Shown: positions 1 through 51,465 of the stretch, piece by piece
Layout of the letters: the number at the start of each line of letters is the position of its first letter
Position numbering within the stretch: the first letter of the stretch is position 1
From: a virus
Taxonomy: Duplodnaviria > Caudoviricetes
IMG/VR virus record: IMGVR_UViG_3300025128_000057
Span: 1-51,465 of that record
Strand: one strand, 5' to 3'
Length of the DNA stretch: 51,465 nt
Made by a program: the position numbers and the translations under genes
The notes under the pieces: model-generated
What the model was told of the DNA's origin: nothing
The model's input: the letters and a program-made list of their open reading frames with translations, nothing else
Database searches by the model: none

Positions 1-50
1 ATTAGGGTTTTCATTTGACTGGCTCCTTTGAGGTTTGCGTTTGCTGCCAT
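1..50 (-). CDS. 5' fragment of a gene running off the window (MAANANLKGASQ-MKTL...)
   Basis: Leaderless ATG at 50; in-frame SD (AAGGAG)-led ATG at 14; truncated by window edge. Confidence 0.55.
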   Translation of the reverse strand, partial: MAANANLKGASQMKTL

Positions 51-86
51 GACAATAACTATACACACTAGGGGAACCCCTAGCAA
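50..86 (-). promoter_or_regulatory. Family promoter P1 with palindromic operator
   Basis: Minus strand TTGCTA-17nt-TATAGT-7nt-ATGGCAGCAA; perfect palindrome CTAGGGGAACCCCTAG at 68-83. Confidence 0.85.
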
Positions 87-134
87 CCAAAAAGGGTAAA
101 AAGATGAGAATATTTGAGATTATTTTCTAGGCCC

Positions 135-178
135 AAAAAATGAAGATCCCGTGACCGGTCAGGGGCCACGGGACCTTC
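135..178 (-). terminator. Intrinsic terminator
   Basis: GAAGGTCCCGTGGCC-loop-GGTCACGGGATCTTC then ATTTTTT on minus strand; the right-end copy converts a G-U pair to A-U. Confidence 0.85.
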
Positions 179-180
179 TA

Positions 181-234
181 CTCGTTGGGAGTCAAGGAGG
201 GAGTTATGACAGCAACCGCCTCAACCAACGAGCG
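181..234 (-). ncRNA. Candidate 3'-UTR antisense RNA complementary to the shared early-mRNA leader
   Basis: Hairpin CTCGTTGG...CCAACGAG enclosing GCGGTTGCTGTCAT (anti-leader) and TCCCTCCTTGA (anti-SD); identical in both repeat copies. Confidence 0.6.
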
Positions 235-471
235 TTATGTTGTTCCCTGCACGATAGCAGGAACGTTCTCTTTCAGCCACTGGTCAGCGTGGCGCTGGAA
301 ACCTTCATCCATCATGTAACGCCAGATTGCTTCAGCGTCGTTACCGGCTCTCGTTAGCAGCGTTTCTACAAACTCATCGGGAAGCTGTAGTGAACCAAGC
401 CGGTTCACCAACGTAACTACCGCGGCTTGTTGACGCTTCGACAGATCAGTGATGCGATGAACTACCGTCAT
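235..471 (-). CDS. Hypothetical protein, 78 aa
   Basis: ORF conserved in second copy (50266-50502); 4-nt overlap with upstream gene. Confidence 0.8.
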   Translation of the reverse strand: MTVVHRITDLSKRQQAAVVTLVNRLGSLQLPDEFVETLLTRAGNDAEAIWRYMMDEGFQRHADQWLKENVPAIVQGTT

Positions 472-911
472 TCGATCACCAGCATTTCAAGCGTCGGCTC
501 AAACTCTTGGTCTGCTCTATCGCGTAGGCGTGGGTTCGTGAATCTGTCAACGAACTCGTCGCCGGTGCTGATTTCGCCGTTGTACTCAACCATCAGTTCA
601 TCAGGCATCTGCGTTCCGAACTTGCTGGTACGGGTAGTCCAGTAAACCTCTGGCGTTGGGTACTCAGGGTCAATTTCACTAATCCCGATTCCGAAGCCTT
701 TGTTGGTGCGGTCATCGCCTTGTAGTTCGTTGAAGATCATGCGAGTCAAATAATCTGGGTTGTTCCAAGCGTCACGGTTATCGTCAAGTGCTTTCGCAAG
801 TACCTGACAGATTTGGCTTCCTCTCCAATGTGTGTAAAAGAAGATGCTTGCTTCTCCGCTGGCTTCTCCGACTAGCGGTTGATTGATTTGGATGTTTCCT
901 CTATCACCCAT
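468..911 (-). CDS. Hypothetical phage protein (MGDRG...YTHWRG)
   Basis: ATG 911 with SD GAAAGGA; ORF-track extension to 986 runs through the tRNA-like element; conserved in second copy. Confidence 0.8.
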   Translation of the reverse strand: MGDRGNIQINQPLVGEASGEASIFFYTHWRGSQICQVLAKALDDNRDAWNNPDYLTRMIFNELQGDDRTNKGFGIGISEIDPEYPTPEVYWTTRTSKFGTQMPDELMVEYNGEISTGDEFVDRFTNPRLRDRADQEFEPTLEMLVIE

Positions 912-940
912 GACAGTCCTTTCTGTTGTTGTTGCTGTCG

Positions 941-1008
941 TACTGCGGAGAGGAATTGAACCTCTCACTTCCCCGAACGTCGGCAATTCGGAGGTAGCCT
1001 TTCGCAGC
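941..1008 (-). ncRNA. D-armless tRNA-like element 1
   Basis: Acceptor GCTGCGA/CCGCAGT (6 of 7 paired), T-arm AGAGG-TTCAATT-CCTCT, one central hairpin, discriminator A, then CGACAGCAAC; no CCA. Confidence 0.7.
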
Positions 1009-1023
1009 CCTACCCTGTGTGAA

Positions 1024-1344
1024 TCAGGCGTTCACCCCGTTCATCCGCTTCAAGAAGAATTCAGCGTCTAAAGATTGGACCACTAGGTCGTAGATGTCGT
1101 GCATTTCGCCAAACAACATTTTGGAAGCCAGAGCCTGAGCTTCAGCCATAGTCTTGAAGCTCTTGGAGTGGTCTAGTTCAGGGCAACTCACGACGAAAGA
1201 ATGTTCCTTCTCGCCAGTGCCTGCGGTAACGGTTACGCCTTCAATGGTGACGTTGAAATCAAGATTTGTGCGATTTCCTGTGAAACTTAGTTTGCGTGTT
1301 TCTGTATTCATTTCGGTTCCTCCTACGGTTCCGGTTGCTGTCAT
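1024..1344 (-). CDS. Hypothetical protein (starts 1344 leaderless, 1311 SD-led)
   Basis: First gene after P2; SD AGGAGG before 1311; conserved in second copy. Confidence 0.8.
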   Translation of the reverse strand: MTATGTVGGTEMNTETRKLSFTGNRTNLDFNVTIEGVTVTAGTGEKEHSFVVSCPELDHSKSFKTMAEAQALASKMLFGEMHDIYDLVVQSLDAEFFLKRMNGVNA

Positions 1345-1380
1345 GTAATGAACTATACACACTAGGGCGGCCCCTAGCAA
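1344..1380 (-). promoter_or_regulatory. Family promoter P2
   Basis: TTGCTA-17-TATAGT-7-ATGACAGCAACCG; operator CTAGGGCGGCCCCTAG 1362-1377. Confidence 0.85.
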
Positions 1381-1393
1381 CCTCATCCAGTAA

Positions 1394-1882
1394 TTAATTC
1401 GAAGATTTCCATTTACGGTCACCAGCACCCCCACGCAAACCAGCCTCCAACAAATATTGGCGCGTCTCCTCAGACTGAAATTCGGTTTCCTCAATATGAA
1501 TGTTCGTCGCCACCATGAAACCCTGCCTCGTTAGCACGTTCACGATCCCAGTGTTTCCCGGAGTTGTCTCACGCTCAACAGCGCGCCCCACCTCATCGTA
1601 AAGGTAAACCGCTAACCCTTGATCACGTAACTCACCTAAACGAGTACCAGCTTGGTTCGGTGAAATAGTGCGGCCAGCACCGTTCACAATATGTTCGCTC
1701 AACTCGTAAGCGGTCATGCCACGTTTCGGTTCACGAGCTAACGCTTTTATTGCTTGCGCTTTCTGGCCACCTGACTTGACGTTCCTCGCTGCGACTTGAC
1801 TCGTCTCCGGGTGATCGGCTCCGACTTTGCCGCCGACTTGGTCAGGGTTGAAGCCGAACAGGTTGTATTGCTCATTCGACAT
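1394..1882 (-). CDS. Putative winged-helix DNA-binding protein
   Basis: HPETSQVAA motif followed by MTAYELS...TRLGELRDQGL HTH-like segment. Confidence 0.55.
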   Translation of the reverse strand: MSNEQYNLFGFNPDQVGGKVGADHPETSQVAARNVKSGGQKAQAIKALAREPKRGMTAYELSEHIVNGAGRTISPNQAGTRLGELRDQGLAVYLYDEVGRAVERETTPGNTGIVNVLTRQGFMVATNIHIEETEFQSEETRQYLLEAGLRGGAGDRKWKSSN

Positions 1883-1991
1883 TTTGTTCTCGTTTCGCTT
1901 CGGCTGTTCGTAGCGCTCGTTCGACGTAAGGCATCAGGCGTTCCGGGTCAGCTTTCGCCCATTCCCTGAGGTGCTGTTCGTAGTCGTTCAT
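1872..1991 (-). CDS. Small hypothetical protein, 39 aa (MNDYEQHLREWAKADPERL...)
   Basis: Read manually; fills the gap, ATGA overlap with 1988-2281. Confidence 0.6.
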   Translation of the reverse strand: MNDYEQHLREWAKADPERLMPYVERALRTAEAKREQNVE

Positions 1992-2281
1992 ATCGCTGTG
2001 TCCCAGTCCGGGTGGTCTCCCGCGTGTTCGTAACCGGTTGCTTCTTCAAATCTTCTTTGACCGAGCGAGATTGCTAGGTCTTTGAAGGGGAGATTTGATT
2101 CTTGGTAAATCTCTTCAAAGGATTTTCCGGCGTCATGTAACTGCTGCACTTTTCGGACTATGGCTCTTATAGCGTTGCCATCTTTTCTTTCCAACGCCTC
2201 AGCCGTTTCCTTAATTTCCTTCCGTAGTGAGACAAGTTCAGGGATTGTCATGTCTGCGTGATTGCGCTCAAAGTCCACCAT
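1988..2281 (-). CDS. Hypothetical protein
   Basis: Operon packing, 1-nt overlap with upstream gene. Confidence 0.7.
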   Translation of the reverse strand: MVDFERNHADMTIPELVSLRKEIKETAEALERKDGNAIRAIVRKVQQLHDAGKSFEEIYQESNLPFKDLAISLGQRRFEEATGYEHAGDHPDWDTAI

Positions 2282-2499
2282 TATGCCTCCAGTTCCCAGC
2301 CGTAAGACTTCAAGCCGGTGCGATACTTAGCTACGGTTCCGGTGATGTCTCGTTTAGTGAGTGTCGTGTTCCATGCTTTGTTTTGAATCCGATTCCAGTG
2401 GTCTGTTTCGGTTCGTGATTTAGCTATTTCGTGTTCACGAAGTTTCCACTTATCTTCTAGGCGTTCGTGAATTTCGATAGGTACGAATGCTCTCATCAT
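2281..2499 (-). CDS. Hypothetical protein ending LKSYGWELEA
   Basis: Operon packing. Confidence 0.7.
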   Translation of the reverse strand: MMRAFVPIEIHERLEDKWKLREHEIAKSRTETDHWNRIQNKAWNTTLTKRDITGTVAKYRTGLKSYGWELEA

Positions 2500-2648
2500 G
2501 CTTCTAGCTCCCAGTCGTATGGCTTCAACTCTGTGCCGTGATGGACACGATCTAAAGCCAACTGCATTTCGGCTGCTCGCTGTTCGTCGCGCCGGTCCAG
2601 ATAAACACCGGCACCCATAAGACCGAAGATGAAGATTGCTTCAATCAT
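2496..2648 (-). CDS. Small membrane protein, 50 aa (MIEAIFIFGLMGAGVYL...LKPYDWELEA)
   Basis: Read manually; SD AGGAGG; ATGA overlap; hydrophobic N-terminus. Confidence 0.7.
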   Translation of the reverse strand: MIEAIFIFGLMGAGVYLDRRDEQRAAEMQLALDRVHHGTELKPYDWELEA

Positions 2649-2685
2649 TTTGACAGTTCCTCCTGTTTGGTTTTTGTTGCTGTCG

Positions 2686-2737
2686 TGCCCCGGTGCGGAA
2701 TCGAACCGCCGCTCGGGTAGGAGCGCCAGTCCGGGGC
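2686..2737 (-). ncRNA. D-armless tRNA-like element 2 (52 nt)
   Basis: Perfect acceptor GCCCCGG/CCGGGGC, T-arm GCGG-TTCGATT-CCGC, small hairpin GCTC/GAGC, discriminator A, then CGACAGCAAC. Confidence 0.72.
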
Positions 2738-2744
2738 GAGCCGC

Positions 2745-2996
2745 CTAGAGGCATCCCTTAAGAAGGCTGACGGTCCTTTCCACTTGGATCAGCGTTTCTC
2801 GCGCTTCGTCGGTGCGAGCCGATAAGCGAGTTCGTGCAAAGCGAGTCAGTCCATCACCGGTTTCGGCAAGTTCGGCTTCTAACCTAGCGAGACGAGCTTC
2901 AAGGAACCCCATCATCATGGCAGCGCTGATTTCGTGATCTTCGATTGTCTTGTTCATGACATTTCCTCCTGAGTTTGAGTTTCGGTTTGCTGTCAT
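2745..2996 (-). CDS. Hypothetical coiled-coil protein (starts 2996 leaderless, 2957 SD-led)
   Basis: First gene after P3; SD AGGAGG. Confidence 0.75.
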   Translation of the reverse strand: MTANRNSNSGGNVMNKTIEDHEISAAMMMGFLEARLARLEAELAETGDGLTRFARTRLSARTDEARETLIQVERTVSLLKGCL

Positions 2997-3031
2997 ATAA
3001 GAACTATACATACTAGGGGAACCCCTTGCAA
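2996..3031 (-). promoter_or_regulatory. Family promoter P3
   Basis: TTGCAA-17-TATAGT-6-ATGACAGCAA; operator CTAGGGGAACCCCTTG 3013-3028. Confidence 0.85.
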
Positions 3032-3061
3032 CCTAATTCAGTAAAAAGATTGAAAAAGTTT

Positions 3062-3433
3062 TCAGTCCCAAGAATTACTCAACAACCCAAGCGACTTCGC
3101 CACATCAGGATGACCATGAATCCAGTCATGGCAGCGACGGCAAACAGCGATCGTGTTATCTACGTCAAGGATTGAACCACCGGCTGACCTTTGTAACGGC
3201 TCATGGATATCAGTAGCGCGACCTTGGCAACGATCAGTTCGCCGTTTCTCCTGAGCGTATTCTGCGCCGAAATTGTTTTGGTGCCACATATAGATCGGTT
3301 CACCAGCTTCGCAGAAGGGTCGGACAGCGAGTTGCTCACGAACAAGATTTCGGCGTTGCCCTTGAATCTTCTGCCGTTTCTTCGACACTGACCTGAGTGG
3401 TGTCTTGCGTTGAATCGGGCCGCTACGTTTCAT
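3062..3433 (-). CDS. HNH endonuclease-like protein
   Basis: DIHE...RSAGG...NTIAVCRRCHDWIH; MKRSGPIQRKTPLR N-terminus. Confidence 0.75.
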   Translation of the reverse strand: MKRSGPIQRKTPLRSVSKKRQKIQGQRRNLVREQLAVRPFCEAGEPIYMWHQNNFGAEYAQEKRRTDRCQGRATDIHEPLQRSAGGSILDVDNTIAVCRRCHDWIHGHPDVAKSLGLLSNSWD

Positions 3434-4265
3434 TGGTTACATACCTATCAAGCGGATAGTTGTATTTGTGGTCTTCCCTCAGGTGAGGCGCTCGATCCGG
3501 TGCGATAACTTCATCGAACTCGTCAAGCACTCCGGGTATGTAGGTCCCGTCTTCGCCTTCTTCTGGGTCGTAATAGCCGAACAGTTCTTCTTCGGCTTTC
3601 GCTCGTGCTTCTTTTTCGTAAAGTTCGTATGTCACGAGGATCTTCAATTCGCGCTGCGCCATTAAAGACTGAATGAGCGGATCTACTTCTAGATCATCAT
3701 CATCGGTCGTGATTAGATAATCATCGTGATGGCGCGACAGTTTGCCTGTTTCCCAATTCCACGCGTAATGCTCGCCGTAGTCATGGACAAGGCCGGGTGT
3801 GACTTCTTCGTGCCAGTGGTTGTGGTGAGCGCGACAAAGCCAAGCCGTAGGCCAGTTGTGGTAGTCAGCAAAATAAGATTTAGGGCCAAAGTGGTGGTAT
3901 TCGATATCCGTGTTAGTGCATTGATTCTTTGTGTCAGCCCCGTGTGCGCATTGTCGTTCCTGCTGTGTTTCGTTTACCAACAACACGTCGTTCGCCCACG
4001 GAATATCCATTCGGATATCTTGTGCGTGCCAAACCAACAGATTCTTGATGTATTGACCGGTTCCGAAATACAAAAGTTTGCCGCACTCAGAACACTCTGG
4101 TCTGTTCTGTGTCGCTCCGTTACGAAGCAAACGCACTGTTAACACCGATGGCGCACCGTCGCATCTCTCACAAGTCGGAATTTTGTTGATGAAGTCTTCT
4201 TTGAATTGTTGTCCGGCTTCGGTTAAGTGAGGCAGTTCAGATCTCGTGTCGAATAGCTCAGTCAT
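3423..4265 (-). CDS. Hypothetical protein with CxxC pairs and HNH-like His cluster
   Basis: CERC, CSEC, EYHHFGP...WLCRAHHNHWH. Confidence 0.6.
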   Translation of the reverse strand: MTELFDTRSELPHLTEAGQQFKEDFINKIPTCERCDGAPSVLTVRLLRNGATQNRPECSECGKLLYFGTGQYIKNLLVWHAQDIRMDIPWANDVLLVNETQQERQCAHGADTKNQCTNTDIEYHHFGPKSYFADYHNWPTAWLCRAHHNHWHEEVTPGLVHDYGEHYAWNWETGKLSRHHDDYLITTDDDDLEVDPLIQSLMAQRELKILVTYELYEKEARAKAEEELFGYYDPEEGEDGTYIPGVLDEFDEVIAPDRAPHLREDHKYNYPLDRYVTNET

Positions 4266-4404
4266 TGGTTGCGTTTCCTTTCGTCATCCACGCTGTCGGG
4301 CAGATTTGGAGTTGATGACACGAACAGAATTGTTCGGCCAATAGTTCAGGGTGATCTTCTGTGAAAAGCGTTAACAAGGTTTTTGGGTCTGGTTTCTTCT
4401 TCAT
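4258..4404 (-). CDS. Small Cys-containing protein (MKKKPDPK...CSCHQLQICP)
   Basis: ATG 4404 overlaps upstream stop (ATGA). Confidence 0.55.
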   Translation of the reverse strand: MKKKPDPKTLLTLFTEDHPELLAEQFCSCHQLQICPTAWMTKGNATND

Positions 4405-4946
4405 GGTTGACACGTCCAGTAAAGCCACGAGTCGTTGCCGACTTTCCAAGCGTGATGCGCCATAGCGATGTTTGTTCGGGCAACAAAGATTCGGTCCCAC
4501 ACTTCAGGCGGCCACGCTTCTTCCCAAACATCATTCATCTGAAACAACCCTCTATCGATTGTTCCGTTCGTGTTCGGTTTACTGACTGCCCTCGGGTTCA
4601 TTCTCGATTCACAAGTAGCGACGGCGATGGCTTCCTCACAGTCCCATTCCCATTTCGGGTCACAGATCAACCGTTCCAACTCGGTGAGCGGTTCGTAACT
4701 TGCCAAAACAACTTTGATGGTTGTCGTTGGCATCGTCACCCACGGTTCAACGACCGTAGTGGTCGTAGGCGTTGCGATTGGGATGATTGCCACAGTTGTC
4801 GAAGGCGGTAATGCTATCGTCGTCACCACTGGGGCCGCTGTCGTGGGAATAACACCAGTAGCCACGGGACTTATGACCTGAGTCCTCTGGCCGCTAAACC
4901 CAAAAGCGAACACGACAAAGCACATGGCAGCGGCCACCAGTTTCAT
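4401..4946 (-). CDS. Secreted SLT/lysozyme-like lytic transglycosylase
   Basis: Signal-like MKLVAAAMCFVVFAFGF, Thr/Pro linker, CESRMNPRA (catalytic E) and GLFQ motifs. Confidence 0.8.
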   Translation of the reverse strand: MKLVAAAMCFVVFAFGFSGQRTQVISPVATGVIPTTAAPVVTTIALPPSTTVAIIPIATPTTTTVVEPWVTMPTTTIKVVLASYEPLTELERLICDPKWEWDCEEAIAVATCESRMNPRAVSKPNTNGTIDRGLFQMNDVWEEAWPPEVWDRIFVARTNIAMAHHAWKVGNDSWLYWTCQP

Positions 4947-5308
4947 GATCGTGGCTCGTATTCGCCGCTTGCCCATTGACCGTAGCTGTCCGGTAAACAA
5001 TCTTCGCATGGTCGAAAAGTATCAGTCTTCGTCTCAACGAAACCGGAGTCGCATTTCGGGCACGCTTCCATTCGGTCACGCCTCCCGATCAACGATTGTT
5101 TGCTTGCTTCCTTTTCAGCTAACGCCATGAACTCATCTAAAGATGGGAACTTCGCTCCCGTCCGGGCAACCGTAACAGCCGTTCGGCTGATCACGCTGAT
5201 TGGATGTTGGCTCCATGTGTCTAACCACAGGGTTCGCATTTGCTCCGACGCGTAACTGGTTGGGAACGCCCCAAGGAGCTTGTCGAAGGCTTTCTCAAAT
5301 TGATTCAT
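4943..5308 (-). CDS. Replication-region protein with C-terminal zinc ribbon
   Basis: FPSLDEF motif, CPKC...CEDC; SD GAGG. Confidence 0.6.
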   Translation of the reverse strand: MNQFEKAFDKLLGAFPTSYASEQMRTLWLDTWSQHPISVISRTAVTVARTGAKFPSLDEFMALAEKEASKQSLIGRRDRMEACPKCDSGFVETKTDTFRPCEDCLPDSYGQWASGEYEPRS

Positions 5309-5831
5309 GGCTACCGCCTCGCCCAATCTGTTTCATGCCTTCCATAAGTTCGTCAGGCATTTCAAGTGTCGGATCAGCTTGCTGAAGGCGTCGGCGGTCA
5401 TCACGCTCTTTCGCTGCGTTAAAGGCTTTCACGAAGTGGAACCGATCGTTATCGGGTCGCTCCGAACGACAGAGGTCTCCCCAGCCGCCGCAGGACTTCA
5501 TAGCAGCCTTGATTTCATCATTCAGGTCACCCGGCCCTCCATTAAAACCAACTCGCCTTATACGTTCGCACACAAGCTCCCATGCCTGTTCGCCTGTCAT
5601 GGCCTCAGGGTCATGGATTGCGGCTCGCCGGATAGTCGTGATCGCAGGGAAATAGGCTTGTTCCGTAAGGAGCGTATTCTTCGTTGCTTCCCAAGACCTT
5701 GGGTGAAGATCCCATAGCAAGTTGATGTATTCATCAATCTGAGGGTCAGTCAGTTCCCGGTTGTAAATTTCAGATAGCTCTGTGATCGCTATTGCCGCTG
5801 CCCGTCGCCCTTGCCGTTCTGTCTCGTTCAT
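5295..5831 (-). CDS. Putative replicative helicase loader/inhibitor (G39P-like)
   Basis: YFPAITTIR, EQAWELV...IRRVG, GGWGDLC; directly after initiator. Confidence 0.6.
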   Translation of the reverse strand: MNETERQGRRAAAIAITELSEIYNRELTDPQIDEYINLLWDLHPRSWEATKNTLLTEQAYFPAITTIRRAAIHDPEAMTGEQAWELVCERIRRVGFNGGPGDLNDEIKAAMKSCGGWGDLCRSERPDNDRFHFVKAFNAAKERDDRRRLQQADPTLEMPDELMEGMKQIGRGGSHESI

Positions 5832-6628
5832 AGTTCGCCCCGATCAACTTTGGCTTGCATTCGCTTAAAGGTTTTCTGGCCTGCTGACAACGGTTCGCTG
5901 CCAACGATCTCATCTTCCCAGCGTTTATCACGTACCCAGCGTTCAGGGTCTTGCCTGTATTGCTTCTCCCGTGACGCTGCATATTCCGTTGCCTTCGCAA
6001 TAACCAGTTCGGCCAGAGCCACATCCTTGATGTGTTTGGCCCAATGCTTTTGGGTGGCTGGCTTATTGACCTTCTTGCCATAAACATCCCAGAACTCATC
6101 AAACATTTCAGTGGCAAGTTGTTTCTCATCAACAAGTTCAATTTCGCCCGAATCAAAAAACTCCAGTATTTGAGTTCCTTTTTTATGAGTTTCTATTAAT
6201 GAGTTAATTGGGAGCGCGTTTTCACGCGCCTCGACCCGCGTGGTTTCACGCGCCTCGACCCGCGTGGTTTCGCGCTCCTCCCTTCGCGCGTTATCGCGCG
6301 CTTCCTCAACCACTTCTTTAGGGTAAAGAAGCTCGTACAGGTTGCTGGTCTGGCGTCCATCGTCATACTGAGATTGAACGATGAGCAAACCCTTTTCTTC
6401 TAGTTCAGCCCTCGCCCTGCGGAGTGTGCCTGAGTTGGTGCCTTCAGGTAGTAGTTCAAGTAATGAGCGGCTACTAGGAAAGCACTTGTTCGTTTTAGTG
6501 TTACGGAACTTTGCAAGAGCGATCCATAACCGTAGGGCGGTCGGTGACAATTTCACCTGTAGCAGGTCAACGGGTATGTGGATAGTGTTTGCATCCCACT
6601 TTGCCATTTTTGTGTTAGGCTGGTTCAT
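5828..6628 (-). CDS. Replication initiator (N-terminal HTH, C-terminal FDEFWDVY..K domain)
   Basis: LSPTALRLWIAL...CFPS...TLRRARAELEEKGL...QTSNLY; internal DNA repeats. Confidence 0.75.
   Translation of the reverse strand: MNQPNTKMAKWDANTIHIPVDLLQVKLSPTALRLWIALAKFRNTKTNKCFPSSRSLLELLPEGTNSGTLRRARAELEEKGLLIVQSQYDDGRQTSNLYELLYPKEVVEEARDNARREERETTRVEARETTRVEARENALPINSLIETHKKGTQILEFFDSGEIELVDEKQLATEMFDEFWDVYGKKVNKPATQKHWAKHIKDVALAELVIAKATEYAASREKQYRQDPERWVRDKRWEDEIVGSEPLSAGQKTFKRMQAKVDRGEL
6155..6302. repeat. Iteron-like repeats plus AT-rich tract (candidate origin)
   Basis: 24-bp TTTCACGCGCCTCGACCCGCGTGG twice plus degenerate CGCG units; AT-rich 6155-6210. Confidence 0.6.
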
Positions 6629-6662
6629 ACCAGCACTCCTTCCATAGTGTTGGTTTCATTGG

Positions 6663-6710
6663 ACTGAAAATGACCCACCCGAGACTCTCACCTCGGGTGG
6701 GCCTTTCAGT
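6663..6710 (-). terminator. Strong hairpin/terminator after DUF932-like gene
   Basis: CCCACCCGAG/CTCGGGTGGG stem followed by TCATTTT on minus strand. Confidence 0.6.
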
Positions 6711-6715
6711 TTAGC

Positions 6716-7750
6716 TCAGGCAGGGATTAGCTCGCGCCATGCCTTCTCAGTGAGGTTGCCTACACGGCCAACCGCTACCCGATCCATGAGCTTGTCGCCC
6801 TGAGCGGTAGCGTCACCTTGATTAGCGTGCTGCTCAATTTCGCTGATCGCTTGAACCAAGCCCCAACCGGTCATCCTTGCACTTGGCAGAATCGTTTCCG
6901 AATCCCTCCAGTTCGTCAGGATGGCTTCACGCTTGTTGCCACGCATCGTGATCGCTCGATCACTGAGCACCTTGCCAGCGTCATCCCGAAAGATTTGCTC
7001 GCCGTTCACAACTTCACCGTTCAATGGAACAAGTTTGTTCAAGATGATGTTTCCGCCTTCACGGGAAAGTGGGCGGTTCATCAAGACACCGATCTGCCGG
7101 TCCATTTCTTTGGCCCATTCAACCTGTAGGTGTAAGGCCTCTCGGGCAGCGTCGATACGGTTCCAGATGTTCGCGGTGTGCTTGAAGCTGAACACGCTTT
7201 TCGTGTTGTTGTTTTTGCCGTAGAAGGTTGTCGAAAGCGCATTGGTGCAGCTAGGCACCATCGCAGTCGAAGCGACCCTCAATGCCGTTGACCCGTCGAA
7301 TGAGTTAAGGAAACCCATGTACGGTTGAACGTCAGGCATGTTCTGCATCTCGTAAGGCAGTTTGCCGAACATGAAAGTTTGGGCACCGCCTTTACGTTTC
7401 CCGGCCCATTCAGGTGACCATCCGTCACCGACGAGAGCGTCCATCAATCCAACGACTTGCTCAGTCTGGATTACGTGGTAACCCTTTCCTACGATGCCGA
7501 GTATGTCTCCGGTTGTTTCGTTGACAGTTAAGCGACTGTCGGGCATTTCAACTTTACGGGGTAACCGTAAGGCTGGGTTGTTGCTCTCAGGGAGAGAAAC
7601 CTCAGCGACGTGCGGAACCTTAGCTACGGTGAAGTCAAGGCCAGCGACTTTGATCGCTTCGTTGATACCGAGGCCAGAGATGTCCTCTGCGTCGACCGAC
7701 TCCCAAGGCGCATGCCTGTGAGACGGGTTTCGGGTAATTTCTGTTGTCAT
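6716..7750 (-). CDS. DUF932/DUF945-family protein
   Basis: AGLDFTV, LGIVGKGY, NSFDGST, CTNAL, KHT, TGWGLVQAISE motifs. Confidence 0.8.
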   Translation of the reverse strand: MTTEITRNPSHRHAPWESVDAEDISGLGINEAIKVAGLDFTVAKVPHVAEVSLPESNNPALRLPRKVEMPDSRLTVNETTGDILGIVGKGYHVIQTEQVVGLMDALVGDGWSPEWAGKRKGGAQTFMFGKLPYEMQNMPDVQPYMGFLNSFDGSTALRVASTAMVPSCTNALSTTFYGKNNNTKSVFSFKHTANIWNRIDAAREALHLQVEWAKEMDRQIGVLMNRPLSREGGNIILNKLVPLNGEVVNGEQIFRDDAGKVLSDRAITMRGNKREAILTNWRDSETILPSARMTGWGLVQAISEIEQHANQGDATAQGDKLMDRVAVGRVGNLTEKAWRELIPA

Positions 7751-8499
7751 TGTGAATCCTCCGATTCGGTTGCTGTCACTTCATTATTACCGGTAGGGGC
7801 TACCCTGTCAAGTAAAGATGAGATAATAATTTCAAGTTCATCCTCGCTGACCGCTGAACTACCGTTCTCTCCCCACGCTTCAAGGGCTAATTCCTTATCC
7901 CCATTGGCCGCTTCAAGAACAAGGTGTTTCGCTTTCGCCGCCGAAACCAACGTGATCACATCACCTTCCGGCCCTACGTCTGCCCCTAGTTCCTCAGGCA
8001 CGTAACCAGCGCCAAGAACCACATCGCTAAACAGATTCCGGCACAGTTTGGACACAGCACGCCACGTCAACATTGATTCCTGATACTGCTTCCAATTCTT
8101 TTTGCCTGCGAGGCCAGCAGCTTCAGCATCATCCAACGTAAACGTCGCAGTGTGCTCATCACCAGTATCGCAGCGTTTACCAATCGCAGTAGCTGAACCA
8201 GCGCCATTCTCAATGGTGACTGAATGGCCAGCCTGACGCACAAGCCCGAGCATCGCTTCCGGCTTCATGGATGCGCTGCCTTCAATCACATGGAAGTTAC
8301 GCATAGATGCCATCACGTCCCAACCGAAAGCCCGTCCGGCTAGCCCAGCGGCGACGATGTCAGCTTCACGGTTACGGTAAGCAGCAGGAACGATCCGTGA
8401 ACTGGCGAGTACCGTAGCCTGCCGCATCACTAGATCGAAGTAGCGGCCATCATCGGCACGCGCTACCTGTCGTTCTTCAATGATTTCAATGTCGGTCAT
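7747..8499 (-). CDS. RecT-like single-strand annealing protein
   Basis: VPAAYR, FHVIEG, FTLDDAEAAGL, WKQYQESML..RA, Y.PEEL. Confidence 0.7.
   Translation of the reverse strand: MTDIEIIEERQVARADDGRYFDLVMRQATVLASSRIVPAAYRNREADIVAAGLAGRAFGWDVMASMRNFHVIEGSASMKPEAMLGLVRQAGHSVTIENGAGSATAIGKRCDTGDEHTATFTLDDAEAAGLAGKKNWKQYQESMLTWRAVSKLCRNLFSDVVLGAGYVPEELGADVGPEGDVITLVSAAKAKHLVLEAANGDKELALEAWGENGSSAVSEDELEIIISSLLDRVAPTGNNEVTATESEDSQ
7779..7811 (-). promoter_or_regulatory. Family promoter P4 inside the 3' end of the RecT-like gene
   Basis: TTGACA-17-AATAAT, operator GTAGGGGCTACCCTGT 7793-7808, then GTGACAGCAACCG. Confidence 0.65.
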
Positions 8500-9092
8500 A
8501 GCTTTGCCCCTTTCTGGACATCAAGACTGAACGACGCTTCTTTCTTACAGAACTCATCGTCATTCAAACCAAGTTTCTTCAACTCAGACCAGCGCGGCTC
8601 GAAGCGGAATGCCCTTTTGAATAAACGCAGTTTGGCTACGTCGTAATCAAGTAGCTCCCCATCACCATTTGGGTCAAGGCGAAAAACGGGGTTAGCGGTC
8701 AACCGTTCAACCGCCTCCGCTAATTCATCTCGCCGGATCTCGGTTCGCTTAACAGTGTGTTTAGGTGTGCAAACAACTTGCTCACCGTTATCACTTTCGA
8801 TGACGACGGGTAACGGTTTGTTGCCGTTCGCCTCGAACAGTCGTGAAGCGATACGGGTGCTGTAACCGGAAATGCTTTCCCGTAGTTTGCCGTTTGCTTG
8901 TTTCCACTTAGGAATCAGCCTTGCCGCAACACGGTCACTCATTTCAATATGGTGAGTTGCTTCAGCGAGGTGTCCCATCGCAGTTGTGATTGCATCCGCT
9001 ATCTCGTCGGCAGTCGCGTCATCCGCGATTCCATCGAGAGCGGCGGCTGCATCATGGACAGGTCGTAGTTGCGACCATTGCATATTTGCCAT
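8496..9092 (-). CDS. Hypothetical protein
   Basis: ATG 9092 with SD AAGGAGG. Confidence 0.7.
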   Translation of the reverse strand: MANMQWSQLRPVHDAAAALDGIADDATADEIADAITTAMGHLAEATHHIEMSDRVAARLIPKWKQANGKLRESISGYSTRIASRLFEANGNKPLPVVIESDNGEQVVCTPKHTVKRTEIRRDELAEAVERLTANPVFRLDPNGDGELLDYDVAKLRLFKRAFRFEPRWSELKKLGLNDDEFCKKEASFSLDVQKGAKL

Positions 9093-9119
9093 TGCTCCTC
9101 CTTGGAGATTGATTGATGT

Positions 9120-9178
9120 CTGATAACACCAGCCTGCCCACCGGGTGAGACACCCGATGAGCAGATAGTTGGCATCAG
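9120..9178 (-). other. Long intergenic RNA hairpin (possible processing site)
   Basis: 15-bp stem TCTGCTCATCGGGTG/CACCCGGTGGGCAGG with G-U pairs, plus outer CTGATG/TATCAG; no U-tract. Confidence 0.55.
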
Positions 9179-9654
9179 CCCCTATCCCAGCAGTCGCCCA
9201 CCTCCATCCAGTTGTCCACGGCGTACCCATCCGGAAGCGCAGCGACCCACTCTGAGCGAGTCATGTTGGTCACGTTGGTTGACAGCCCGATACGGTCTGC
9301 GAAGTGAAGGGTGTTAAGGCGCATCTTCCGATACACCAACTCGCCTTCGTGTTCTTCCCAGACGCCGACGCGATTGTCGTCACCGGTTGACAGGATGTGA
9401 TAGCGCTCCGCGACTTCGTACATATTGTCGGAAGTGATTTTGTTGATACCAAGGTTCGGCATCATCTGGATAACCGAAGTGGTTATCCGATGCTGGTTCC
9501 GTTGGTAATTGGTTGAGCCTTCAGTGAACACCTCCCCGTTTTGGCTTGGGTCGATGTACGTTTCAGCCAGAAGGCTGTCAGCGTTTCGACAATTTGCGAT
9601 GTTCCATGTGAGTGGCATATTTGAATCTCCGATTCTTGTTGCGATTACTGCCAT
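9175..9654 (-). CDS. Hypothetical protein (starts 9654 leaderless, 9618 SD-led)
   Basis: First gene after P5. Confidence 0.75.
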   Translation of the reverse strand: MAVIATRIGDSNMPLTWNIANCRNADSLLAETYIDPSQNGEVFTEGSTNYQRNQHRITTSVIQMMPNLGINKITSDNMYEVAERYHILSTGDDNRVGVWEEHEGELVYRKMRLNTLHFADRIGLSTNVTNMTRSEWVAALPDGYAVDNWMEVGDCWDRG

Positions 9655-9702
9655 GACTTCACTTTATCATGAATCACCACCGTTGTCAAGGGGTAGCCCT
9701 AA
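9654..9702 (-). promoter_or_regulatory. Leftward divergent promoter P5
   Basis: TTGACA-17-TAAAGT-6-ATGGCAGTAATCGC; operator CAAGGGGTAGCCCTAA 9687-9702 lies upstream of/over -35. Confidence 0.8.
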
Positions 9703-12676: not shown

Positions 12677-12952
12677 ATGTATATGGGACCAAACATATTG
12701 AAAGACTGGCGTCCCACCAGCCCTTTGCCGCAACAAATTCGCAGCGAAGCGCGGTGTGCCGGAGCGCCAATCGACTGGTTCTATCCAGACAAAGGGAAAT
12801 GGGCTATCGGCAGGCAACTGTGCCGGATGTGCCCGGTACAAGAGGAATGTTTGCAATATGCGTTGGATAACAAAATCCGACACGGAACTTGGGGCGGATA
12901 CACCTCCCGAGAACGCTACCGAATGGGAAAGCAACGGAATGACGGAACTTGA
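12677..12952 (+). CDS. whiB: WhiB-family transcription factor
   Basis: C...WFYP...CRMCPVQEECLQYAL...GTWGG..RER. Confidence 0.92.
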   Translation: MYMGPNILKDWRPTSPLPQQIRSEARCAGAPIDWFYPDKGKWAIGRQLCRMCPVQEECLQYALDNKIRHGTWGGYTSRERYRMGKQRNDGT

Positions 12953-13574
12953 AACTGAACTTGTGAGCGTGGAATCGGCTGTGTTGTCAACTCATCCTGA
13001 TAATGCTCGCCGTGGAAATGTTGATGCGATCAGAGAGTCGATACGCACGAACGGTTTTTATGGGGCGATCATCGCCCAGAAATCTACGGGCCACATCATT
13101 GTAGGTAACCACCGTTACACGGCTGCTGTGCAGGAGGGCATCACTGAGATCCCTGTTATTTGGCGTGATTGCACGGATGATGAGGCTCGGAAGTTGTTGC
13201 TAGTCGATAACCGTTCTAGTGACGCTGGTTCGTATGACGAGGAATCGTTACGTGATCTGCTTGCTTTGACCCTCGATTCGACTGGCGACCTGCTTGGCAC
13301 CGGTTACGAACAGGATGATCTTGAAGCGTTAATGTTTTCGCTTGAAATTAGTAGCACCGATTTCGGTGAGTTGTTGCCGGACGCTCTCACTCCAGATGAG
13401 GCGGCTGATAGTTATCAAGCTGCCGGTATACGTTCAATCATTTTGCCTTATGATCTTGATGACTACAACAGCATCGTAGAGATGTTCGAAAAGGCACGCT
13501 CCGGTTTAAGCGTTGACTCGAACGCTGACGTAGTTCGGGTGTTGTTGGCTGGTTACACAGATGCAAATAGTTGA
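12939..13574 (+). CDS. ParB/Srx N-terminal domain protein
   Basis: HPDNARRG...SIRTNGF...IIVGNHRYTAA...LLVDNR. Confidence 0.85.
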   Translation: MTELETELVSVESAVLSTHPDNARRGNVDAIRESIRTNGFYGAIIAQKSTGHIIVGNHRYTAAVQEGITEIPVIWRDCTDDEARKLLLVDNRSSDAGSYDEESLRDLLALTLDSTGDLLGTGYEQDDLEALMFSLEISSTDFGELLPDALTPDEAADSYQAAGIRSIILPYDLDDYNSIVEMFEKARSGLSVDSNADVVRVLLAGYTDANS

Positions 13575-49596: not shown

Positions 49597-50091
49597 TTAG
49601 TAGTCGTAGGTGCTTCCACGAAGGTCAGCGCGAACGAGGTTCTCGCTGTACAGGCTGTCCTTGACCTTGATGCCGTTGTCGATGAACGCATCTCGAAGCC
49701 GGTATGAACCACTAGCGTGGTCGAACTTGTTCAGTTCAACGTGCATGCCAAGGTTTTCCAAGACGAAGATCGGTGCGTCGTATTCGTGCGCTGTTTTCTC
49801 AGTCTGGTATCCGTTGCGATTTACGGTTTCAACAGCGAAGCTCGTGCTGCTATCGCCGAGGGCGTAGTTGAATTCAAAGTAGTGGCAGCTAACGGCGCTG
49901 CAAGCGGTCCATGCTGGGCGACCGGCTCCGGGGAGAACGGTCAAGTTTCCGGTTCCTCCGCACTGGTCGTTCTGGACGATCAGGTGAGCTAGTTCCGCTG
50001 GGTCTACTTTGCGAGCGGTCTTGCTGGCGGTGCTGTAGTTAGGGATAGTGTTCATTTCGTTGGCTCCTTTGAGGTTTGGGGTTGCTGCCAT
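49597..50091 (-). CDS. Hypothetical protein (starts 50091 leaderless, 50055 SD-led)
   Basis: First gene after P11. Confidence 0.75.
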   Translation of the reverse strand: MAATPNLKGANEMNTIPNYSTASKTARKVDPAELAHLIVQNDQCGGTGNLTVLPGAGRPAWTACSAVSCHYFEFNYALGDSSTSFAVETVNRNGYQTEKTAHEYDAPIFVLENLGMHVELNKFDHASGSYRLRDAFIDNGIKVKDSLYSENLVRADLRGSTYDY

Positions 50092-50127
50092 GACAATAAC
50101 TATACACACTAGGGGGACCCCTTGCAA
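50091..50127 (-). promoter_or_regulatory. Family promoter P11 (homolog of P1)
   Basis: TTGCAA-17-TATAGT-7-ATGGCAGCAACC; operator 50109-50124. Confidence 0.85.
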
Positions 50128-50165
50128 CCAAAACAGGAGAATATTTGAGATTAATTTCTAAGCCC

Positions 50166-50265
50166 AAAAAATGAAGATCCCGTGACCGGTCAGGGGCCAC
50201 GGGATCTTCTACTCGTTGGGAGTCAAGGAGGGAGTTATGACAGCAACCGCCTCAACCAACGAGCG
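50166..50265 (-). ncRNA. Second copy of antisense hairpin plus terminator
   Basis: One substitution relative to 135-234. Confidence 0.6.
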
Positions 50266-50942: not shown

Positions 50943-50971
50943 GACAGTCCTTTCTGTTGTTGTTGCTGTCG

Positions 50972-51031
50972 TACTGCGGAGAGGAATTGAACCTCTCACT
51001 TCCCCGAACTTCGGAGGTAGCCTTTCGCAGC
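50972..51031 (-). ncRNA. tRNA-like element 1, variant lacking 8 nt of the central loop
   Basis: Acceptor and T-arm identical to 941-1008. Confidence 0.7.
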
Positions 51032-51046
51032 CCTACCCTGTGTGAA

Positions 51047-51367
51047 TCAGGCGTTCACCTCGTTCATGCGATCCAAGAAGCATTGAGCTTCTTCAGAGTG
51101 GACCACTAGGTTGTAGATGTCGTGCATTTCGCCAAACAACATTTTGGTAGCCAGAGCCTGAGCTTCAGCCATAGTCTTGAAGCTCTTGGAATGGCCTAGT
51201 TCAGGGCAACTCACGACGAAAGAATATTCTTTCTCGCCAGTGTCTGCGGTAACGGTTACGCCTTCAATGATGACGTTCAAATCAATGTTTGTCCGATTGC
51301 CTGTGAAACTTAGTTTGCGTGTTTCTGTATTCATTTCGGTTCCTCCTGAGGTTCCGGTTGCTGTCAT
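51047..51367 (-). CDS. Hypothetical protein, variant of 1024-1344
   Basis: Starts 51367/51334. Confidence 0.8.
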   Translation of the reverse strand: MTATGTSGGTEMNTETRKLSFTGNRTNIDLNVIIEGVTVTADTGEKEYSFVVSCPELGHSKSFKTMAEAQALATKMLFGEMHDIYNLVVHSEEAQCFLDRMNEVNA

Positions 51368-51403
51368 GTAATGAACTATACACACTAGGGCGGCCCCTAG
51401 CAA
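51367..51403 (-). promoter_or_regulatory. Family promoter P12 (copy of P2)
   Basis: Identical to 1344-1380. Confidence 0.85.
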
Positions 51404-51465
51404 CCTCATCCAGTAATTAATTCGAAGATTTCCATTTACGGTCACCAGCACCCCCACGCAAACCA

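What the first reader, a model, noticed from the sequence alone, without database searches (positions are those of the whole stretch)
941..2737. D-armless tRNA mimics placed immediately before the shared leader inside operons
Seen: two intergenic elements of different sequence (941-1008, 68 nt; 2686-2737, 52 nt) fold as acceptor stem plus T-arm with a TTCRATT loop closed by G-C, keep a GG in the linker where the D-loop GG would be, and lack a D-arm and CCA. Both continue with the identical ACGACAGCAACAA, then an SD and ATG. Each lies after the first gene of a family-promoter operon. Established: RNase P and RNase Z recognise the acceptor/T-arm half, as with t-elements and mascRNA. Inference: host tRNA-processing enzymes cut here and give the downstream cistrons a new 5' end (C)GACAGCAAC matching the promoter leaders, placing them under the same anti-leader control or stabilisation.
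Basis: partly seen in the sequence, partly recalled or inferred. Interest (0 to 1): 0.88.

Follow-up and report, generated by a model that had tools for sequence, protein, structure and literature searches.

The report
tRNA-like punctuation marks in phage operons
An uncultured marine phage and its relatives place small tRNA look-alikes between genes, each joined at a fixed spot to the same short leader that starts its promoter transcripts, which suggests the phage borrows the host's tRNA-trimming enzymes to cut its operons into messages with uniform starts.

Summary
On the minus strand, 1008..941 (68 nt) and 2737..2686 (52 nt) each have a 6-7 bp acceptor stem, a variable middle hairpin and a T arm (GGTTCRATTCC). 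A discriminator A follows, then the identical CGACAGCAACAA, an SD and ATG. A third copy lies at 51031..50972. ARAGORN and Rfam call none of them tRNA.

Pattern scans found the same syntax on 37 further viral or metagenome loci and in none of 112 bacterial-genome hits. At least seven sequence-unrelated types exist. They range from a tRNA-Trp that passes Rfam to minimal forms with UUCG or GNRA tetraloops where the anticodon loop would be. Acceptor and T stems covary: 11 of 12 pairs across types show changes on both sides. The element-leader junction is invariant. Between the window's two diverged copies, element plus leader is 89/89 identical while the flanking genes are 86-92% identical.

Best reading (about 0.55): these are t-element-like signals for host RNase P and RNase Z. 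They would cut out the first, probably leaderless, cistron and give the downstream message a promoter-like 5' end. Cleavage itself is untested, because no RNA data were available. A conserved 3'-UTR stem-loop displays the complement of the leader. This is a new variant of a known kind.

The parts
941..1008 (-). tRNA-like element E1 (type A), 68 nt: acceptor stem, long middle arm with a variable apical loop, T arm with loop UUCAAUU, discriminator A941
   Evidence: MFE -27.3 kcal/mol, z -2.67, three-way junction; 88.6 bits with model R1
912..940 (-). Leader after E1: CGACAGCAAC, CA-rich stretch, SD AAAGGA, and CUGUC directly before ATG 911
2686..2737 (-). tRNA-like element E2 (type B), 52 nt: 7-bp acceptor stem, 5-bp middle hairpin, 4-bp T arm with loop UUCGAUU, discriminator A2686
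   Evidence: 41.1 bits
2649..2685 (-). Leader after E2: CGACAGCAACAAAAACC, SD AGGAGG, and CUGUC before ATG 2648
50972..51031 (-). tRNA-like element E3 (type A), 60 nt. It is the E1 sequence with an 8-nt shorter middle loop and lies in the diverged right-end copy of the left end.
   Evidence: (97 bits)
50943..50971 (-). Leader after E3, identical to the leader after E1
1312..1380 (-). Family promoter (TTGCTA, GGGG..CCCTAG spacer palindrome, TATAGT) and 5' end AUGACAGCAACC of the operon that holds E1. The first ORF ends at 1024.
2958..3031 (-). Family promoter and 5' end AUGACAGCAAAC of the operon that holds E2. The first ORF ends at 2745.
51334..51403 (-). Family promoter and 5' end of the operon that holds E3
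181..233 (-). 3'-UTR stem-loop whose apical loop carries the invariant GGUUGCUGUC (217..208), the complement of the leader GACAGCAACC
135..178 (-). Intrinsic terminator that ends the E1 operon, directly after the anti-leader stem-loop
   Evidence: stem with compensatory changes, followed by a T run
50166..50264 (-). Second copy of the anti-leader stem-loop plus terminator, at the end of the E3 operon
   Evidence: 98/99 identical to the left copy

Best explanation
E1, E2 and E3 are tRNA-like punctuation elements, the phage counterparts of plant-mitochondrial t-elements. They are transcribed inside early operons, directly after the first short cistron.

Each folds into the coaxial acceptor/T-arm stack with a T-loop elbow. 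That stack is what host RNase P and RNase Z measure.
- RNase P would cut 5' of G1 and release the first cistron.
- RNase Z would cut after the discriminator A. The downstream message would then begin with C+GACAGCAAC, essentially the same 5' tag as every promoter transcript of the phage.

That 5' tag can pair with CUGUC next to the start codon. It is also complementary to a conserved loop in the operon's own 3' UTR. Processed and primary messages would therefore share the same 5'-end-dependent stability or translation control.

Shown here: the structure, its conservation, the covariation, the invariant junction and the position in the operon.

Inferred: that cleavage occurs, which enzyme makes which cut, and what the tag does. 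A sub-variant is that only RNase P cuts, leaving the element as a 5' cap on the downstream mRNA.
For: (1) One architecture, many sequences. At least seven types (A-G, plus a B' variant) share these parts: a 6-7 bp acceptor stem, a 4-5 bp stem with a 7-nt loop stacked on it, a discriminator A or G, and then the leader.

(2) Covariation.
- Type A: 4 of 12 pairs changed on both sides, matched by 0/500 shuffles. 90.2% of cells paired, against 35.6-63.6% when the partner columns are slid.
- Type B: 5 of 16 pairs changed on both sides; 95.8% paired against 39.6-54.9% slid.
- Across types, on a model-fitted alignment: 11 of 12 pairs changed on both sides, 102 compensatory cells against 31.5 in shuffles, and 89.5% paired against 40.2-52.5% slid.

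(3) These are not decoding tRNAs.
- The middle hairpin carries UUCG, GCAA or GAAA tetraloops or loops of varying length.
- ARAGORN and Rfam do not call them.
- Yet the same slot in relatives holds a tRNA-Trp(CCA). ARAGORN calls it in 6 loci, and one copy scores 40 bits against the Rfam cut-off of 29.

(4) tRNA-specific sequence is kept.
- The T-loop UUCRAUU is conserved.
- The linker GG is invariant in both window types.

(5) The junction is fixed.
- With the gap left free (6-20 nt), all 10 of 10 leader-like hits have gap 12.
- One further family member with a 4-bp T stem has gap 11.
- The discriminator-C-GACAGCAA join is therefore constant.

(6) Purifying selection. Element plus leader is 89/89 identical between the window's two copies, apart from an 8-nt loop indel. 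The three flanking genes are 92.0, 86.2 and 86.1% identical.

(7) Position.
- In 10 of 35 contexts a strictly defined family promoter lies 186-534 nt upstream. In 9 of those 10, a single ORF starts at the 5' ATG and ends just before the element.
- With a looser promoter pattern, about 17 contexts look like true family promoters by eye.

(8) Same tag on primary transcripts. All 10 window promoters found by the scan are followed by (A/G)UG(A/G)CAGCAA. In relative G001, 7 of the 8 promoters found are followed by AACAGCAA (the eighth by AUGGCAGCAG), while its 2 elements are followed by CGACAGCAAC.

(9) Precedent. t-elements with the GGTTCRANYCC motif define mRNA ends through RNase Z and RNase P (PMC1920247, passages read). 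RNase P also processes phage C4 and M3 RNAs and polycistronic mRNAs (PMC11143913, passages read).
Against: - There is no RNA evidence at all. No processed end has been seen.
- The host is unknown, so whether it has RNase Z and CCA-less tRNA genes is unknown.
- E2's MFE is a rod without the T arm. In type B the T stem shows no change on both sides, and the rod's extra pairs are not excluded.
- A7.C66 is mismatched in all 11 type A sequences.
- Types F and G have non-canonical loops, TGCAACT and AGCGAGA. The T-loop sequence is therefore not essential to whatever the function is.
- The 5' GACAG/CUGUC stem is weak: -4.1 and -4.4 kcal/mol, z about -0.4.
- A predicted RNase Z product starts 1 nt before GACAGCAAC, whereas promoter RNAs start 2 nt before it, so the ends are similar but not identical.
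- The family was collected with patterns that fix the T loop and the leader. Their co-occurrence is partly by ascertainment. Only positions outside the pattern, and the gap scan, are free of this.
- The cross-type alignment was fitted to the model's structure, which leans toward pairing.
Confidence: 0.55

Rival explanations
1. The element is an uncleaved cis-acting structure. A compact, stable fold in front of the ribosome-binding site would insulate the unstructured CA-rich leader from upstream sequence, block 3'-to-5' or 5'-to-3' decay, or uncouple translation of cistron 2 from cistron 1. No tRNA enzyme would be involved.
For: - The elements always sit directly before a CA-rich leader, SD and ATG.
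- Types F and G keep the shape but not the T-loop sequence.
- E2 can also fold as a simple rod.
Against: - A mere stable hairpin would not need the 7+5 bp stacked geometry, a 7-nt loop reading UUCRAUU, an invariant linker GG and a purine discriminator across unrelated types.
- It would not be interchangeable with a true tRNA-Trp in the same slot.
- It would not need a join to the leader fixed to the nucleotide.
Confidence: 0.15
2. The released small RNA is the point. The elements would be non-decoding tRNA mimics, matured by host enzymes and perhaps given CCA. They would act in trans, for example as decoys for host tRNA-targeting defence nucleases or acceptor-end-modifying toxins, or as sponges for tRNA-binding factors. 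The mRNA cut would be a by-product.
For: - The acceptor/T-arm half is conserved while the anticodon arm is discarded.
- Several different types are kept per phage lineage: two types in the window, in G001 and in L164.
- The elements are expressed from strong early promoters.
Against: - This does not explain the invariant join to the leader.
- It does not explain the strict placement after the first cistron.
- No defence or anti-defence context was identified. The neighbouring early proteins have no Pfam match, 0 of 10.
- It is compatible with, and not exclusive of, the processing model.
Confidence: 0.12
3. The elements are decaying tRNA genes, pseudo-tRNAs carried along with no present function.
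For: There is a gradient from a bona fide tRNA-Trp (40 bits) through a sub-threshold form (27.6 bits to tRNA-Sec) to forms that no model recognises.
Against: - Compensatory changes keep the stems paired.
- There are 0 substitutions in 89 nt where the neighbouring genes differ by 8-14%.
- Tetraloop-capped replacements of the anticodon arm look remodelled rather than eroded.
Confidence: 0.06
4. This is a DNA-level feature. The conserved leader, with or without the element, would be a recombination linker at mosaic module borders, or a repeated protein-binding site of the stoperator or start-associated-sequence kind known from actinophages. It would not be an RNA signal.
For: - In one DNA run a contig is identical to the window over 1427-2687. 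Exactly at the element/leader border it continues into a different (type F) element.
- The same leader precedes unrelated genes.
- The motif is repeated in one orientation at every promoter.
Against: - A DNA site would not require RNA-type covariation, including G-U pairs, in the adjacent element.
- It would not require a join to the end of an acceptor stem.
- Module exchange at conserved sequence is an expected side effect of any conserved motif.
- No binding protein has been identified.
Confidence: 0.07
5. The elements are remnants of attP sites, that is, 3' parts of host tRNA genes used for integration.
For: The only support is that phage att cores often copy tRNA 3' halves (recalled general knowledge).
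Against: - There is no tyrosine or serine integrase in the record, which is rated 100% complete (controls rang in 14/14 and 12/14 genomes).
- The elements contain both acceptor strands.
- There are three copies of two types, all sense to transcription and all between cistrons.
- None of the 112 hits in 185,579 bacterial and archaeal genomes shows the full syntax.
Confidence: 0.01

Closest known systems
t-elements of plant mitochondria (Forner et al. 2007, PMC1920247; passages read)
   Same: - Non-canonical tRNA-like folds that keep the acceptor stem and a T arm with GGTTCRANYCC.
- They lie next to mRNAs in polycistronic transcripts.
- Element borders define mRNA 5' ends (RNase Z) and 3' ends (RNase P).
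- The released element can receive non-encoded C/CCA.
   Different: - Here the setting is a bacteriophage genome, with bacterial enzymes.
- Several unrelated sequence types are interchangeable in one slot.
- Each is joined at a fixed nucleotide to a leader that copies the promoter-transcript 5' end.
- Each sits systematically after the first cistron.
- No ends have been mapped here.
Mitochondrial tRNA punctuation and the MALAT1 mascRNA
   Same: tRNA or tRNA-like folds are used as cut marks by RNase P and RNase Z to separate RNAs made from one transcript.
   Different: Those use full tRNAs (animal mitochondria) or a single 3'-end element (mascRNA). Neither is found in bacteria or phages, and neither has a coupled leader motif.
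RNase P-processed phage RNAs: P1/P7 C4 antisense RNA and phage M3 RNA (listed among RNase P substrates in PMC11143913; passages read)
   Same: A phage transcript carries a tRNA-like substrate for host RNase P inside an operon transcript.
   Different: C4 is itself the antisense regulator. Here the elements have no evident target, and the candidate antisense loop is a separate 3'-UTR stem-loop. Both ends of the element are proposed to be cut.
tRNA genes embedded in phage or bacterial operons, such as T4 tRNA clusters and E. coli tRNA-tufB co-transcripts (recalled)
   Same: The type C relatives carry a tRNA-Trp in the very slot that E1 and E2 occupy. Maturation of that tRNA necessarily cuts the mRNA.
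   Different: E1-E3 have no anticodon loop and no D arm, and no tRNA finder calls them. What is retained is only the half that the processing enzymes read.
Start-associated sequences of Cluster K mycobacteriophages (PMC3203893, seen only in the search listing) and Cluster A stoperators (recalled)
   Same: A short asymmetric motif is repeated in one orientation in front of many genes of an actinophage-like genome.
   Different: Those motifs are not attached to tRNA-like folds. SAS overlaps the SD, whereas the motif here lies at the presumed RNA 5' end, upstream of the SD.

Membership tests
Canonical tRNA (Rfam RF00005 / ARAGORN) | Cloverleaf that scores at or above the curated threshold, or is called by a tRNA finder | tested here: not met
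   ARAGORN finds 0 genes in the window. Rfam finds 0 matches at gathering score. There is no tRNA match at E<=10 over 880-2800.
Canonical tRNA (Rfam RF00005 / ARAGORN) | D arm, and a 7-nt anticodon loop on a 5-bp stem | tested here: not met
   There is a 4-5 nt linker where the D arm would be. Middle-hairpin loops are 6, 7-9 or 3 nt long, and relatives have UUCG, GCAA or GAAA tetraloops.
t-element-like tRNA mimic (processing signal) | Acceptor stem stacked on a T arm that carries GGTTCRANYCC | tested here: met
   Sequence. Covariation of both stems in type A and across types. For E2 (type B) the T stem is inconclusive, because the rod alternative is not excluded.
t-element-like tRNA mimic (processing signal) | Lies inside a longer transcript next to a coding region | tested here: met
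   The elements lie 7-15 nt after a stop codon and 29-37 nt before the next ATG, on the same strand. There is no promoter or terminator between them and the upstream family promoter.
t-element-like tRNA mimic (processing signal) | RNA ends coincide with the element borders | not testable with these tools
   No RNA run was listed. Only DNA contigs could be laid.
t-element-like tRNA mimic (processing signal) | Cleaved by RNase P and RNase Z | not testable with these tools
   This needs an in vitro or in vivo assay.
tmRNA tRNA-like domain | tRNA-like domain joined to an mRNA-like tag reading frame, called by ARAGORN or Rfam | tested here: not met
   There is no tmRNA call. The only match in the window is a 15-nt T-arm match at 11.7 bits against a cut-off of 70. 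Relative type D scores 20 bits against 47. The acceptor stems show no G3.U70 pair.
attP / tRNA-gene fragment of an integrating phage | An integrase gene is present in the phage | tested here: not met
   PF00589 and PF00239 give 0 matches in the 51,465-bp record.
attP / tRNA-gene fragment of an integrating phage | Sequence identity to a host tRNA gene 3' part | tested here: inconclusive
   None of the 112 genome contigs pattern hits had the family syntax. The pattern required the leader, however, so plain host tRNAs similar to the elements were not searched for.
Stoperator / start-associated-sequence type repeated motif | A short asymmetric motif repeated in one orientation before many genes | tested here: met
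   GACAGCAAC with up to 1 mismatch gives 40 matches against 16.0 expected, matched by 0/100 shuffles. It is present at every family promoter and after each element.
Stoperator / start-associated-sequence type repeated motif | Bound by a phage repressor or other protein at the DNA level | not testable with these tools
   No candidate binding protein was identified.

The most novel reading that the evidence does not exclude
The phage would run a genome-wide system that standardises RNA 5' ends. Every early message would carry the same 5' tag, ACAGCAAC, whether it is made at a promoter or carved out of an operon by host RNase P and RNase Z at a stripped-down tRNA mimic. That tag would be read by a conserved loop (GGUUGCUGUC) in a 3'-UTR-derived RNA. 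One small antisense RNA could then tune the stability or translation of all early messages at once. The tRNA mimics would be interchangeable cassettes, evolved from a real tRNA-Trp, and would also mark the borders at which gene modules are swapped between phages.
Probability: 0.25. Interest if true: 0.9.

Novelty: new variant of a known kind. Interest (0 to 1): 0.78.

Why it matters
tRNA punctuation is textbook for mitochondria. tRNA-like cut marks are known from plant organelles and one human lncRNA. I found no description of bacteriophages using degenerate, non-decoding tRNA mimics as operon punctuation in five full-text searches.

If the elements are cleaved, several things follow:
- Phages would be shown to exploit two essential, hard-to-mutate host enzymes to set cistron-specific mRNA ends.
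- It would explain why some phage 'tRNA-like' sequences escape tRNA finders.
- It would provide natural minimal substrates of 50-68 nt, in several types, for bacterial RNase P and RNase Z.
- It would give a natural counterpart of the engineered tRNA-spaced polycistrons used in synthetic biology.
- Together with the shared 5' tag, the probable leaderless first cistrons and the anti-leader loop, it would make a compact and testable model of post-transcriptional control in an uncultured marine phage group.

Tried and rejected
- Expression data: the look-up of sequencing runs listed no RNA holder, so processed ends could not be examined.
- Read laying on four DNA runs gave contigs only. It reported no joints and no molecule ends.
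- Megablast of 1-4200 against cultured phages gave no match.
- The search for related loci with the single protein 911..468 found no relative.
- Pfam on the ten early proteins around the elements gave 0 families, so the genes being separated have no known function.
- Rfam gave chance-level matches only. Plastid-ycf2 at 21.3 bits against a cut-off of 65.7 lies on the antisense strand of E1. The others were mir-23 and snoR1.
- A reading frame through the leader from ACG was considered. 13 of 32 leaders are in frame, which is about the random third, so this was rejected.
- A stable 5' hairpin was considered. The GACAG/CUGUC complementarity recurs in 28 of 35 leaders, but its folding energy is not better than that of shuffles. 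It is kept only as a weak or dynamic pairing.
- Scan for the type A 5' half without a leader: only the two loci already known.
- Scan for the type B core without a leader: 32 loci. Most are ordinary tRNAs or coding sequence; three are new B' elements.
- Host assignment remains unresolved.
  - The capsid's nearest cultured relatives are Arthrobacter phages at 47.6% identity and Roseobacter phages at 45.9%.
  - The endolysin has Amidase_2 plus two PG_binding_1 domains.
  - An actinobacterial host is suggested but not shown.
Full report
WHAT IS THERE.

The window is a complete-looking IMG/VR virus record of 51,465 bp. It is a siphovirus with terminase, portal, major capsid, tape measure and endolysin genes. 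Its sequence is found in marine metagenome DNA runs.

Genes in 1-9700 run on the minus strand.

E1 (1008..941, 68 nt):
- acceptor GCUGCG(A)/(C)CGCAGU
- a long middle arm
- T arm with loop UUCAAUU
- discriminator A

E2 (2737..2686, 52 nt):
- a perfect 7-bp acceptor stem
- linker ACUGG
- a 5-bp hairpin
- a 4-bp T arm with loop UUCGAUU
- discriminator A

Both are followed by the identical CGACAGCAACAA, a CA-rich stretch, an SD and ATG.

A third element, E3 (51031..50972), lies in the right end of the window. That end is a diverged copy of the left end.

ARAGORN finds no tRNA. Rfam finds nothing at gathering score and no tRNA match even at E<=10.

IS IT MORE THAN CHANCE?

- The exact T-arm 11-mer occurs three times in the window, only in these elements.
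- A generic acceptor/T-arm descriptor gives 4 hits against 0.76 expected.
- E1 folds as the proposed three-way junction (-27.3 kcal/mol, z -2.67).
- E2's single-sequence optimum is instead a rod that consumes the T arm.

The main evidence is comparative. Scans used a pattern that fixes part of the T loop and CGACAGCAA at the tRNA spacing. They returned 13 viral, 112 bacterial-genome and 118 (capped) metagenome stretches.

Of 258 matches examined, 38 passed a filter that required a T stem, an acceptor complement, a CA-rich leader, an SD and a start codon. None of the 38 came from the bacterial genomes. The rejected matches were ordinary host tRNAs or coding sequence.

With a few members that my filter had missed, the family holds 30 distinct elements and 35 distinct leaders on 38 loci. 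Some loci are the same contig held in two collections.

A FAMILY OF UNRELATED SEQUENCES WITH ONE SHAPE.

| Type | Members and features |
|---|---|
| A | E1 and E3; 11 distinct sequences |
| B | E2; 9 distinct sequences |
| C | 70 nt, UUCCAAA loop; called tRNA-Trp(CCA) by ARAGORN in 6 of 8 loci; one copy scores 40 bits against the Rfam tRNA cut-off of 29 |
| D | 90 nt; weak match to the tmRNA tRNA-like domain |
| E | about 50 nt |
| F | T-like loop UGCAACU |
| G | T-like loop AGCGAGA |
| B' | Type B variant followed by a different CA-rich leader |

The middle hairpin is capped by UUCG, GCAA or GAAA tetraloops or by loops of varying size. It is therefore not an anticodon arm.

Covariation was counted on sequence-only MAFFT alignments.
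- Type A: 4 of 12 pairs changed on both sides; 90.2% of cells paired, against 35.6-63.6% for slid partners.
- Type B: 5 of 16 pairs changed on both sides; 95.8% paired against 39.6-54.9%. These changes lie in the acceptor stem and the middle hairpin. The 4-bp T stem shows only G-C to G-U changes, and a rod alternative cannot be excluded.

A covariance model built from type A finds exactly three matches in the window, at 97, 88.6 and 41.1 bits. At lower scores it also recovers the other types. On that model-fitted alignment, 11 of 12 pairs changed on both sides and 89.5% of cells are paired, against 40.2-52.5% for slid partners. This alignment leans toward the structure by construction.

THE JUNCTION AND THE LEADER.

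The gap between the T loop and GACAGCAA was left free at 6-20 nt in a further scan, which gave 84 distinct hits. All 10 leader-like hits have the tRNA spacing. One further member with a 4-bp T stem keeps the same discriminator-C-GACAGCAA join.

The same core begins the promoter transcripts.
- Every family promoter in the window has the same layout: TTGCWA, a GGGG..CCCTAG spacer palindrome, TATAGT. It is followed 6-7 nt later by (A/G)UG(A/G)CAGCAA.
- Some relatives have ACG, CUG or UUG in place of AUG.
- In relative G001, 7 of the 8 promoters found give AACAGCAA, while its two elements give CGACAGCAAC.

In 28 of 35 leaders, CUGU(C/U) or UGUCA abuts the start codon and can pair with the 5' GACAG. 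The stem is weak, at about -4 kcal/mol and z about -0.4.

SELECTION AND POSITION.

Between the two diverged copies in the window, identities are as follows.

| Region | Identity |
|---|---|
| Element plus leader | 89/89, plus an 8-nt loop indel |
| Flanking gene 1311..1024 | 92.0% |
| Flanking gene 911..468 | 86.2% |
| Flanking gene 471..235 | 86.1% |
| 3'-UTR anti-leader and terminator | 98/99 |

A strictly defined family promoter lies 186-534 nt upstream in 10 of 35 contexts. In 9 of those 10, a single ORF starts at the 5' ATG and ends just before the element. A looser pattern matched in 26 of 35 contexts, of which about 17 look like true family promoters by eye. Several other contexts are cut off by contig ends.

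The elements are therefore typically the first thing after the first cistron.

WHAT IT MOST LIKELY DOES.

The conserved parts are the ones that RNase P and RNase Z read on a tRNA:
- the 12-bp stacked helix
- the 7-nt T loop
- the linker GG that could form the elbow
- a purine discriminator
- no CCA

The dispensable parts are the ones used for decoding. A real tRNA-Trp can occupy the same slot.

The closest precedent is the plant-mitochondrial t-element. There, elements found with the same GGTTCRANYCC motif coincide with mapped mRNA ends, which were assigned to RNase Z and RNase P (PMC1920247, passages read). RNase P also cuts phage C4 and M3 RNAs and some polycistronic mRNAs (PMC11143913, passages read).

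I therefore read the elements as processing punctuation.
- RNase P would release cistron 1.
- RNase Z would create a downstream mRNA that starts C-GACAGCAAC.

Cleavage is an inference. No RNA data exist for this phage.

It also remains open whether the purpose is differential stability of cistron 1 against the rest, creation of the tagged 5' end, or release of the small RNA.

THE ANTI-LEADER.

A stem-loop lies at the end of the E1 operon, and of its copy. Its stem covaries in relatives, and its apical loop carries the invariant GGUUGCUGUC, the complement of the leader GACAGCAACC. An intrinsic terminator follows directly. The consensus fold has 31 pairs, 8 of them with compensatory changes.

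ALTERNATIVES.

There is no integrase, both acceptor strands are present, and no host copy with the syntax was found.
- An uncleaved structural insulator remains possible. So does a trans-acting decoy RNA, and so does a DNA-level module border or binding site.
- The module-border reading has some support. One contig in a DNA run is identical to the window over 1427-2687 and then switches to a type F element, exactly at the element/leader border.

NOVELTY.

Five full-text searches found no report of tRNA-like punctuation in phage operons. The library lacks most subscription journals, and supplementary files were not consulted. The principle is known from organelles; the phage setting, the cassette-like diversity, the fixed coupling to a promoter-like 5' tag and the anti-leader are new.

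Noticed in passing
window 181-233 (-) and 135-178 (-); second copy about 50166-50264 (-): A 3'-UTR stem-loop with a covarying stem and an invariant apical GGUUGCUGUC, the complement of the shared leader. An intrinsic terminator follows directly. It is conserved in L005, L164, L238, L242 and L246. The ATG that faces it on the plus strand is not conserved in relatives (TTA, TGT or TTC instead), so it is not a plus-strand gene start.
   Followed up: partly
window promoters, with -35 boxes starting (minus strand) at 86, 1380, 3031, 7811, about 9690, 28477, 35823, 50127 and 51403, and (plus strand) at 9750, 19238 and 22211: An ATG or GTG lies 5-7 nt after the -10 box. Of 14 promoter leaders that have an SD-led ATG, the script flagged 11 as in frame and open. 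Two more are in frame once the second ATG of AATGTCATG is taken. Four further leaders run straight into an ORF. These are probably leaderless mRNAs, which hints at an actinobacterial host. Relative G001 lacks the ATG.
   Followed up: partly
window 1-1433 versus about 50030-51465: The two ends of the record are diverged copies, 90.7% identical overall. This is either a real duplication or a circularly permuted genome assembled across two strain variants. E3 may therefore be the allele of E1 in a second strain rather than a third element of one genome.
   Followed up: partly
window 2686/2687, compared with a contig of run X4: A DNA contig identical to the window over 1427-2687 continues into a type F tRNA-like element instead of E2, so the swap junction lies exactly at the element/leader border. 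Other X4 contigs carry E1 with the 8-nt loop deletion, a T-loop A-to-G change (957) and a linker-arm change (996). L164 has a type D element, with the same leader, at the position of E2.
   Followed up: partly
window 12756-15410 (+): ParB_N (12756-13574), a Tet/JBP 2OG-Fe dioxygenase (13561-14430) and an amino-acid:DNA-transferase-like protein (14427-15410; 24.6 bits, just under the 26.2 cut-off) lie side by side. This is a likely thymidine hypermodification module.
   Followed up: no
window 47893-49020 (+): The endolysin has Amidase_2 plus two PG_binding_1 domains. Together with a capsid nearest to those of Arthrobacter phages (47.6%), this fits a Gram-positive or actinobacterial marine host. 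The host was not determined.
   Followed up: no
L338:681-742, L352:1-61, L353:704-764: Type B' elements (acceptor GCUCCGG) are followed by a different CA-rich leader, CGAACAAAAAACC. The tRNA-like element is therefore older or wider than the ACAGCAAC tag. Promoters of this group were not on the short contigs.
   Followed up: no
window 47319 (-): This is the fourth hit of my generic acceptor/T-arm descriptor. It lies antisense within late genes and has no leader, so it is probably chance.
   Followed up: no
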